DNA from: Eledone cirrhosa
Lineage: Eukaryota
DNA length: 64,000 nucleotides
Assembly: GCA_964016885.1 (NCBI GenBank)
Contig: OZ024742.1
Location: 19,468,001-19,532,000, forward strand
Direction of reading: 5' to 3'
The notes beneath the pieces were generated by a model. It worked only from the letters and a program-made list of their open reading frames with translations. It was not told the origin of the DNA and did no database searches. Shown one piece after another: positions 21,939 to 23,857 of this stretch. The position numbers were made by a program, and so were the translations under genes. Within the stretch, counting starts at the first letter, position 1, and every line of letters starts with the position of its first letter.

Positions 21939-22828
21939 TCATCATCATCATCATCATCAACGTTTAACGTCCGTGTTCCACGCTTGCATGGGTTTGGACG
22001 GGGGTAGTCCCACTTGAGGCAAGAGTGATTGTCTTGCTCGCATAGGACTGTCTGGCAGGTTTTCTACAGTTGGATGCCCTTCCTAACACCAACCACATTT
22101 ACAGTGTGGGACTGGGAGGTTTTTACCGTGTTGCCTACACGGCCACATTACAGCGTGGACTGTGTGTTTTTTTGTCGTGACACCTACACGATCTCATTTG
22201 TTTCGGCCTGGATGGCGCGGCACCAACATAACTTTACATAGAACGGGGTGGTGTGGATGGGGTGGGGGTGGTGGCGGGACGGGGTGTATTTTGTTAGAGA
22301 TGCCTACTGGCAAGGCGGGTCTTCTCTGTTACTGAGTACCGCCAAAGGTCTCGGTCCAGTGACATTGTCTTGGAGAGGTGTAAGTGTGTGAGGTCGGAGT
22401 TTATCAGCTCATCCCAGGTTTTTCTAGGTCTGCCTATTCCGTGGCTACCGTCTATCTTTATTGCCCTGCACTTTGTTATACAGCTATCGACTTTCATGCG
22501 CATCACGTGTCCATACCAACGTAGCCTTCTCTCGAGTAAACAACATCTGATCCCTCTTATCTCTAATTTTTTCCTTAGTTCGTTTATGCTTTGCCGTTCA
22601 CGTATATTACTGTTACACATCCAGCGGAGCATGCAAGCTTCGTTCCTCTCTAGTCTGCGTATATCCTCTGCACACAATGCCCAGGTCTCACTACCATGCA
22701 ACATTGCTGTTCGTATGCAGGCATCGTACAACCTGCCTTTCATTTTTAGGGAGAACCCTTTAGCAGCTAATAGTGGTATAAGCTCTCTGAACTTTTTCCA
22801 ACCAGTTCTGACTCTAGCTACAGTACTT
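21939..22828 (-). mobile_element. 5'-truncated RTE LINE (same family as 54838-56657)
   Basis: Encodes [16 protein letters not shown]...LHGSETW...[12 protein letters not shown]...GRPRKTW; (tga)n tail; TA arrays both sides; almost identical to 54838-55723. Confidence 0.95.
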
Positions 22829-23754
22829 ATATGTATATATATATATATGTATATATATATATATATATATATATATATATATATATATATATATGTATAT
22901 ATATATATATGTATATATATATATATATATATATATATATATATGTATATATATATATATATATATGTATATATATATATATATATATATGTATATATAT
23001 ATATATATATATATATATGTATATATATATATATATATGTATATATATATATATATATATATGTATATATATATATATATATGTATATATATATATATAT
23101 ATGTATATATATATATGTATATATATATATATATATGTATATATATATAGATATATATGTATATATATATATATGTATATATATATATATATATGTATAT
23201 ATATATATATATATATATATGTATATATATATATATGTATATATATATATATATATATATGTATATATATATATATATATATATATGTATATATATATAT
23301 ATATATATACGTATATATATATATGTATATATATATATATATATATATATATATATATATATATGTATATATATATATATATATATATATATATATGTAT
23401 ATATATATATATATATATGTATATATATATATATATGTATATATATATATATATATATATGTATATATATATATATATATATATATATATATATATATAT
23501 ACATATATATATATATATATATACATATATATATATATATATATATATATACATATATATATATATACATATATATATATATATATATATACATATATAT
23601 ATATATACATATATATATATATATATATATACATATATATATATATATATATATATATATATATATATATATATATATATATATATATATATATATATAT
23701 ACATATATATATATATATATATATATATATATACATATATATATATATACATAT
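22829..23754. repeat. (TA)n microsatellite array with G interruptions on the left and C interruptions on the right
   Basis: Direct reading; interruption polarity switches near 23480. Confidence 0.95.
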
Positions 23755-23857
23755 AAGTACTGTAGCTAGAGTCAGAACTGGTTGGAAAAAGTTCAGAGAG
23801 CTTATACCACTATTAGCTGAAATACTTAACTAAAACACACACACACTCAAAACTAGA

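What the first reader, a model, noticed from the sequence alone, without database searches (positions are those of the whole stretch)
22764..23819. CR1 5' junction is capped by an inverted copy of the far flank of the TA array (fold-back priming signature)
Seen: 23755-23819 is the exact reverse complement of 22764-22828, including the private truncation point of that RTE copy. The TA array between them switches from G- to C-interruptions, and the first spacing (15 nt) mirrors. The copy is fused directly to the CR1 5' end. Inference: the upstream target end, cut within self-complementary (TA)n, snapped back, copied the array and 65 bp of flank, then joined the LINE cDNA. This would also lengthen TA arrays at each insertion. 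I know no standard description of this junction type.
Basis: partly seen in the sequence, partly recalled or inferred. Interest (0 to 1): 0.78.

Follow-up and report, generated by a model that had tools for sequence, protein, structure and literature searches.

The report
Fold-back copy at retrotransposon insertion junction
A backwards copy of neighbouring DNA is fused to the cut-short front end of a young retrotransposon, likely made when the broken chromosome end folded back inside a TA repeat during insertion; this junction type is already described for human and engineered retrotransposons, and here it is rare (about 1-2% of sampled front ends).

Summary
23755-23819 is the exact reverse complement of 22764-22828, and the exact mirror runs 117 nt. 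The copy is joined through 2-nt microhomology to a young LINE truncated inside its 5' UTR. It is not part of that LINE family and is a tail-less internal RTE piece, so it was copied locally. A second case lies in the same window (59463-59489, another LINE family, 5-nt microhomology). The junction type is known: 'foldback inversion upstream of the target site' in human L1 (4 events, about 0.3-0.4%) and 'snap-back' in R2. Among sampled LINE ends, direct fusions occurred at 3 of 199 5' ends and 0 of 162 intact 3' ends (not significant; 0 clear cases in 69 fresh 5' ends). TA-centred mirrors also occur on one 3' side and at arrays with no young LINE 5' end, so this looks like general snap-back repair of TA-array breaks that LINE insertion sometimes triggers. 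It does not happen at each insertion. One lead stands: TA arrays are about twice as long on the 5' side as on the 3' side of the two CR1-type families (replicated), but not of RTEs. No independent reads span the junction.

The parts
21942..22828 (-). 5'-truncated RTE-type LINE copy; its 5' end (22764-22828) is the template arm
Evidence: 99.1% identical to sibling at 54841-55722, which continues past the cut point; RT domain in the sibling.
22764..22828 (+). original (template) arm, 65 nt
22829..23480 (+). (TA)n array, G-interrupted part, same polarity as the other array pieces of the locus (21610-21695, 21867-21939, 28137-28300)
23481..23754 (-). (TA)n array, C-interrupted part; inferred inverted, slipped copy; only the outermost spacing is exact; switch point lies between 23461 and 23502
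23755..23819 (-). inverted copy arm, 65 nt; last 2 nt (23818-23819) shared with the LINE as microhomology
23818..28139 (+). young CR1-type LINE, truncated within its 5' UTR; ORF1 about 23858-25033, ORF2 24904-about 28041 with endonuclease and RT (one in-frame stop at 27646-27648), 10-nt tandem tail 28109-28139
28137..28311 (+). 3'-side TA array (mostly G-interrupted), followed by single-copy flank
59463..59489 (+). second case: 27-nt inverted copy of 60174-60200, fused by 5-nt microhomology to the truncated 5' end (59467) of a second CR1-type family on the minus strand; array interruptions mirrored over about 150 nt; a 200-nt LINE fragment (59752-59951) sits in the array

Best explanation
The inverted 65-nt copy was likely made while the CR1-type LINE's truncated 5' end was being joined to the chromosome: the upstream target end, lying in self-complementary (TA)n, likely folded back on its own strand, was extended with slippage through about 275 nt of array and 65 nt of flank, and then joined the LINE cDNA at a TG microhomology. 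Shown: the inverted copy, the microhomology, the truncation and the recurrence at other LINE 5' ends. Inferred: the timing (during insertion), the priming end and the enzyme (a host end-joining polymerase such as Pol theta, or the LINE RT). The same snap-back repair likely acts on TA-array breaks of other origin.
For: Exact 117-nt mirror with direct 2-nt microhomology join. The copy is not in the LINE family and is a tail-less internal RTE piece. All other array pieces at the locus are G-type on +; only the junction-proximal part is C-type. 5' and 3' arrays of one copy normally share polarity, 24 of 29, so the flip here is unusual. Same architecture at a second family with 5-nt microhomology, where the template is not a LINE 5' end, and in L112 (20 nt plus 7 extra nt). 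Direct fusions: 3 of 199 5' ends, 0 of 162 intact and 0 of 13 truncated 3' ends. Two other arrays hold short aborted inverted copies before the long one, as repeated re-priming in TA would give. Arms in L022 (2 mismatches in 48) and L097 have diverged, so those are genomic events. From established knowledge, 5' resection exposes the strand that this route uses as template. The class is published.
Against: 5' enrichment is not significant: 2 of 198 (focal case removed) vs 0 of 162, p=0.50; with array-bridged forms p=0.38. The fresh set gave 0 clear cases in 69 5' ends and 1 array-bridged mirror in 80 3' ends (L263). Mirrors occur with no detectable young LINE 5' end nearby. Array spacings beyond the first do not mirror, and the arms of the array differ in length (about 650 vs 275 nt). 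Relative age does not favour the RTE being older: 0 private changes in 868 nt vs 6 in 4291 nt for the CR1. No independent read or contig spans the junction, and no empty allele was found.
Confidence: 0.5

Rival explanations
1. Same insertion event, other primer: the LINE cDNA 3' end switched onto the upstream flank at 22764, copied 65 nt and then array towards the break, and annealed to the target end within (TA)n. This is the route proposed for human L1.
For: Gives the identical final sequence. The preprint of Nam et al. proposes it. R2 snap-backs are primed by the cDNA 3' end, less often onto nearby target DNA.
Against: Needs a 2-nt microhomology to engage the opposite strand about 700 nt from the break (inference). 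Mirrors at arrays without a LINE need no cDNA.
Confidence: 0.15
2. LINE-independent break repair after insertion: the long TA array broke (cruciform cleavage), the left end snapped back, and it rejoined a right end resected into the CR1 5' UTR.
For: TA-centred mirrors without a young LINE 5' end (C3 block positions in L164, L166, L170; L090) and on a 3' side (L263). TA repeats are cleaved as cruciforms and repaired by Pol theta MMEJ in human cells (PMC13645644, passages).
Against: This route should also erode and cap 3' ends. 3'-truncated ends were few (13 vs 162 intact) and none was capped. The LINE-free cases seen rejoin through TA or short filler, not by deleting into a neighbouring element.
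Confidence: 0.15
3. The RTE insertion made it: the RTE cDNA was extended over the array, folded back onto its own 5' end and joined inside a pre-existing CR1, deleting part of its 5' UTR.
For: The template arm is the RTE's own 5' end. Self snap-back is the commoner form for R2. The RTE copy is at least as young by private changes.
Against: Needs an added deletion of array and UTR. Apart from this locus, the only self-type call among 199 5' ends (L249) is an inversion whose outer arm runs on as long LINE sequence. The other direct-fusion cases copy flanks that are not LINE 5' ends.
Confidence: 0.12
4. Assembly or library artefact (fold-back chimera at a TA hairpin).
For: The arms are identical, TA arrays are error-prone, and no independent data confirm the junction.
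Against: The sequence returns to a collinear LINE and single-copy flank through a microhomology inside the UTR. The second case mirrors with differences in the array, and other loci have diverged arms.
Confidence: 0.06
5. An unrelated RTE fragment inserted by chance in the opposite orientation.
For: The RTE family is very abundant, 11 other sampled copies are identical over the 64 nt, and 4 other copies share the cut point.
Against: The piece has no 3' tail, starts at the same base and carries the local array continuation; only 4 like junctions exist elsewhere in 3.0 Gb.
Confidence: 0.02

Closest known systems
[quoted passage not shown] 2023, PMC10191854; section read, plus passage of preprint 10.1101/2022.05.18.492429)
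   Same: Inverted copy of upstream target DNA joined to the LINE 5' end; rare (3 plus 1 events, 0.3% plus 0.1%); 52-220 bp of extra synthesis.
   Different: Here it is in an assembled genome, in non-L1 families, and runs through a (TA)n array that is copied inexactly. The whole inverted part is about 340 nt. The authors place the primer on the cDNA end.
'Snap-back' 5' junction class of R2/PRINT insertions (Zhang et al. 2024, PMC11371274; passages read)
   Same: Extra antisense DNA, templated by cDNA or nearby target, made before the 5' join.
   Different: Engineered, site-specific rDNA target; mostly copies the cDNA itself; no microsatellite.
5' extra nucleotides of zebrafish L2-clade ZfL2-2 (Yamaguchi et al. 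2014, PMC4245944; passages read) and templated insertions at L1 (Zumalave preprint 10.1101/2024.08.27.596794, 22 instances; PMC11702581; passages read)
   Same: Flank-templated sequence at LINE 5' junctions, host-dependent; inverted duplications at target sites are named in PMC11702581.
   Different: ZfL2-2 extras are described as several nucleotides. The L1 templates lie typically within 15 bp of the site and under 250 bp, whereas here the unique template lies about 650 nt away across the array.
Pol theta MMEJ repair of cruciform-derived breaks at TA repeats (PMC13645644; passages read)
   Same: TA arrays as break sites, with TA providing microhomology.
   Different: Human ecDNA. The passages seen do not describe inverted flank copies or LINE junctions; enzyme involvement here is untested.

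Membership tests
Foldback inversion at LINE 5' junction (Nam 2023 class) | inverted duplicate of sequence upstream of the insertion | tested here: met
Foldback inversion at LINE 5' junction (Nam 2023 class) | duplicate joined to the LINE 5' end and absent from the LINE family | tested here: met
Foldback inversion at LINE 5' junction (Nam 2023 class) | canonical 3' end (tail) on the same insertion | tested here: met
   tandem 10-nt tail at 28109-28139
Foldback inversion at LINE 5' junction (Nam 2023 class) | target-site duplication | tested here: inconclusive
   both sides are G-type TA array, but no exact duplicate can be defined
Foldback inversion at LINE 5' junction (Nam 2023 class) | arose in the same event as the insertion (empty allele lacks both) | not testable with these tools
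   no empty allele in the assembly; no run holds the junction
Twin-priming 5' inversion | inverted segment is from the inserted LINE's own RNA | tested here: not met
   the inverted piece is flank (RTE), not CR1
Pol theta templated insertion | locally templated, inverted, microhomology at join | tested here: met
   2-nt and 5-nt microhomologies; signature recalled from general knowledge
Pol theta templated insertion | dependence on Pol theta | not testable with these tools
   needs genetics
CR1-group non-LTR retrotransposon | ORF1 plus ORF2 with AP-type endonuclease and RT; short tandem 3' tail | tested here: met
   ORF1 has only sub-threshold Myb-like and zinc-finger hits
CR1-group non-LTR retrotransposon | RT phylogeny within the CR1 clade | not tested

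The most novel reading that the evidence does not exclude
5'-junction repair of CR1-type insertions is a main engine of TA-array growth in this genome: the target end repeatedly snaps back and slips inside (TA)n, adding hundreds of bases, and flank-reaching copies like this one are only the visible 1-2%. Each insertion would enlarge the target for the next.
Probability: 0.2. Interest if true: 0.62.

Novelty: new member of a known kind. Interest (0 to 1): 0.3.

Why it matters
As a single junction it adds one more natural example of a described, rare outcome of LINE insertion, now in non-L1 families and through a microsatellite. The wider point is that LINE ends in this genome mostly abut TA arrays (108 of 130 and 62 of 69 5' ends), and arrays on the 5' side of CR1-type copies are about twice as long as on the 3' side. 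If empty alleles confirm net gain, retrotransposon integration would be a direct source of long interrupted microsatellites, testable with population long reads.

Tried and rejected
Independent reads: 8 public runs were laid on the junction. None shows a spanning piece among those listed, but they differ from the window within the LINE or are of other samples, so this is no evidence either way. Empty allele: the 3' flank is single-copy. A search with the RTE stretch returned nothing because very common words are skipped. The detectors had masking faults that hid the focal case (diagnosed); fold-back counts come. The detector still missed L097 (found), so counts are lower bounds. Dropped hits: L279 (hairpin also present in L220, so pre-existing), L268 (26-nt hairpin, no TA, ambiguous), L249 (inversion within LINE sequence), and short-loop hairpin elements beside both 5' and 3' ends (L074, L109, L274, L036, L044, L051, L254, L270, L238), plus three short-fold hits at 3' ends and one at an RTE 5' end (repeat termini, not TA-centred). 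The mirror at 21699-21855/21942-22099 was rejected as two tail-to-tail RTE insertions (2 unshared differences). G-to-C polarity switch as a 5' marker was rejected (9 of 45 vs 6 of 22). RNA-editing origin of A>G changes was rejected (A>G 27 vs T>C 16, p=0.44). Array-length asymmetry weakened to p=0.067 under a looser array definition. Literature: 9 searches found the junction class but no paper on TA-array-mediated fold-back at LINE 5' ends. One search used a guessed taxon name and gave nothing relevant. Paywalled papers and supplements were not seen. Earlier scan notes: none.

Full report
Observation. 22764-22828 and 23755-23819 are exact reverse complements, and the exact mirror continues into the array for a total of 117 nt. 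G interruptions run 22833-23461 and C interruptions 23502-23750; only the first spacing mirrors. The left arm is the truncated 5' end of a minus-strand RTE-type copy whose sibling at 54841-56656 continues past that point. The right arm ends in the first two bases of a LINE with endonuclease and RT domains. Of 40 scored genome hits, 39 start at 23818 and lack the 65 bp. Sister copies have several hundred nt more 5' UTR, so this copy is 5'-truncated and joined by a TG microhomology. The element is very young: a 301-nt internal stretch gave 40 of 40 scored hits at 100%. It ends in a 10-nt tandem tail, a G-type TA array and single-copy flank.

Is it local copying? The RTE cut point followed by TA occurs at 4 other places in the genome, none with this inverted junction in the flank fetched, so 'private' is too strong. 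But the copy lacks the RTE 3' tail, starts at the same base and carries the local array continuation, so an independent insertion is not credible.

Recurrence. A second case lies in the window: 59463-59489 mirrors 60174-60200 and is fused by 5-nt microhomology to a truncated copy of another CR1-type family. Its array interruptions mirror over about 150 nt with small differences. Its template is the end of a repeated element, which I note as a caveat. I then sampled LINE ends from search hits and from three contiguous blocks (864 kb; one centred on the window, two placed around LINE hits, so not random). First set: 130 5' ends (93 with a TA array and a reachable far flank), 82 intact and 9 truncated 3' ends. 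Fresh set: 69, 80 and 4. Direct fusions of an inverted flank copy occurred at 3 of 199 5' ends (focal, the second window case, L112; 1.5%, 95% interval 0.3-4.3%) and at 0 of 162 intact 3' ends. Array-bridged copies occurred at two 5' ends (L022; L097, found by another scan and by eye) and one 3' end (L263). Without the focal case the 5' excess is not significant (p=0.50; p=0.38 with bridged forms), and the fresh set had no clear 5' case. Among 445 arrays in the blocks, three further TA-centred mirrors of 25-47 nt had no young LINE 5' end nearby by DNA or protein search, and two were small hairpins; L090 is another such mirror. Two of them contain short aborted inverted copies before the long one, which points to repeated re-priming within TA.

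Array lengthening. For the two CR1-type families, arrays next to 5' ends are longer than next to 3' ends: medians 486 vs 203 nt (n=80, 47; p=0.024) and, in the fresh set, 554 vs 257 (n=43, 57; p=0.013). In paired fresh copies, 21 of 38 were longer at 5' (Wilcoxon p=0.016); in the first set 8 of 13 (p=0.15). RTE families show no difference. A looser array definition weakened the pooled effect to p=0.067. Polarity switches are not enriched at 5' ends (9 of 45 vs 6 of 22), and 5' and 3' arrays share polarity in 24 of 29 copies, so large in-array inversions are a minority. Without empty alleles, net gain is not shown.

Mechanism. The simplest reading is that the CR1 inserted into the G-type array beside the RTE's 5' end. 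The upstream target end, self-complementary in any register, folded back, was extended with slippage and joined the truncated cDNA at TG. Timing, priming end and enzyme are inferred. A cDNA template switch gives the same product. Later break repair and an RTE-made junction remain open: private changes (6 in 4291 nt for the CR1, 0 in 868 for the RTE) do not order the insertions. No public run spans the junction, which is uninformative as none appears to be the source.

Comparison with what is known. Nam et al. [quoted passage not shown] Zhang et al. 2024 (PMC11371274, passages) define a snap-back 5' junction class for R2 that includes copying of nearby target DNA. Yamaguchi et al. 2014 (PMC4245944, passages) state that ZfL2-2 5' extra nucleotides largely derive from flanks. 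Two L1 cancer preprints describe templated insertions and inverted duplications at target sites (passages). PMC13645644 (passages) shows TA repeats breaking as cruciforms and being repaired by Pol theta. Nine searches found no paper on the TA-array-mediated form.

Verdict. A real, locally templated fold-back at a LINE 5' junction, and a new member of a known, rare class. The microsatellite context and the 5'-side array excess are a modest lead. Interest 0.3.

Noticed in passing
window 59463-60200: Second fold-back junction of the same kind at another LINE family, later split by a 200-nt LINE fragment.
   Followed up: yes
L166 about 5429-5600 and L170 about 2069-2223 (G000:C3): TA arrays holding aborted short inverted flank copies followed by a longer one (32 and 47 nt), with no young LINE 5' end nearby; suggests reiterative snap-back repair of TA-array breaks.
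   Followed up: partly
L019, L077, L004 at LINE 5' junctions: Direct stutter copies of the LINE's first 10-47 nt separated by TA runs upstream of the final join.
   Followed up: partly
many loci, e.g. L054, L060, L072, L074, L238, L254; window 5640-5790: Abundant long near-perfect hairpin elements (tens to hundreds of bp per arm) inserted in TA arrays; possibly Penelope-type or fold-back elements (guess, untested).
   Followed up: no
window 53514-54230 (-): ORF fragment with a sub-threshold GIY-YIG hit (E 0.033), possibly a Penelope-like element.
   Followed up: partly
window 21610-22099: Two RTE 3' ends tail to tail; arrays 21610-21695 and 21867-21939 have nearly the same interruption pattern, like a long target-site duplication. 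L101 shows a similar tail-to-tail pair.
   Followed up: partly
window 5843-5908 and 6477-6542: 66-nt perfect inverted repeat 569 nt apart; only one inner edge abuts a TA array. Origin not resolved.
   Followed up: no
window 48220-51528 (-): RTE-type element with an uninterrupted 1056-aa endonuclease-RT frame.
   Followed up: no
L012, L013, L017, L021, L024, L025, L028, L029: The CR1-type 5' UTR carries a variable tandem duplication of a roughly 190-nt unit.
   Followed up: no
window 12587-15834 and 37868-45444: Long minisatellites: 81-nt unit x40 and 74-nt unit x104.
   Followed up: no
L068, L070, L071, L076 (G000:C27): The same truncated LINE insertion with the same flank at four places, i.e. 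segmental duplicates; collapsed before counting.
   Followed up: partly
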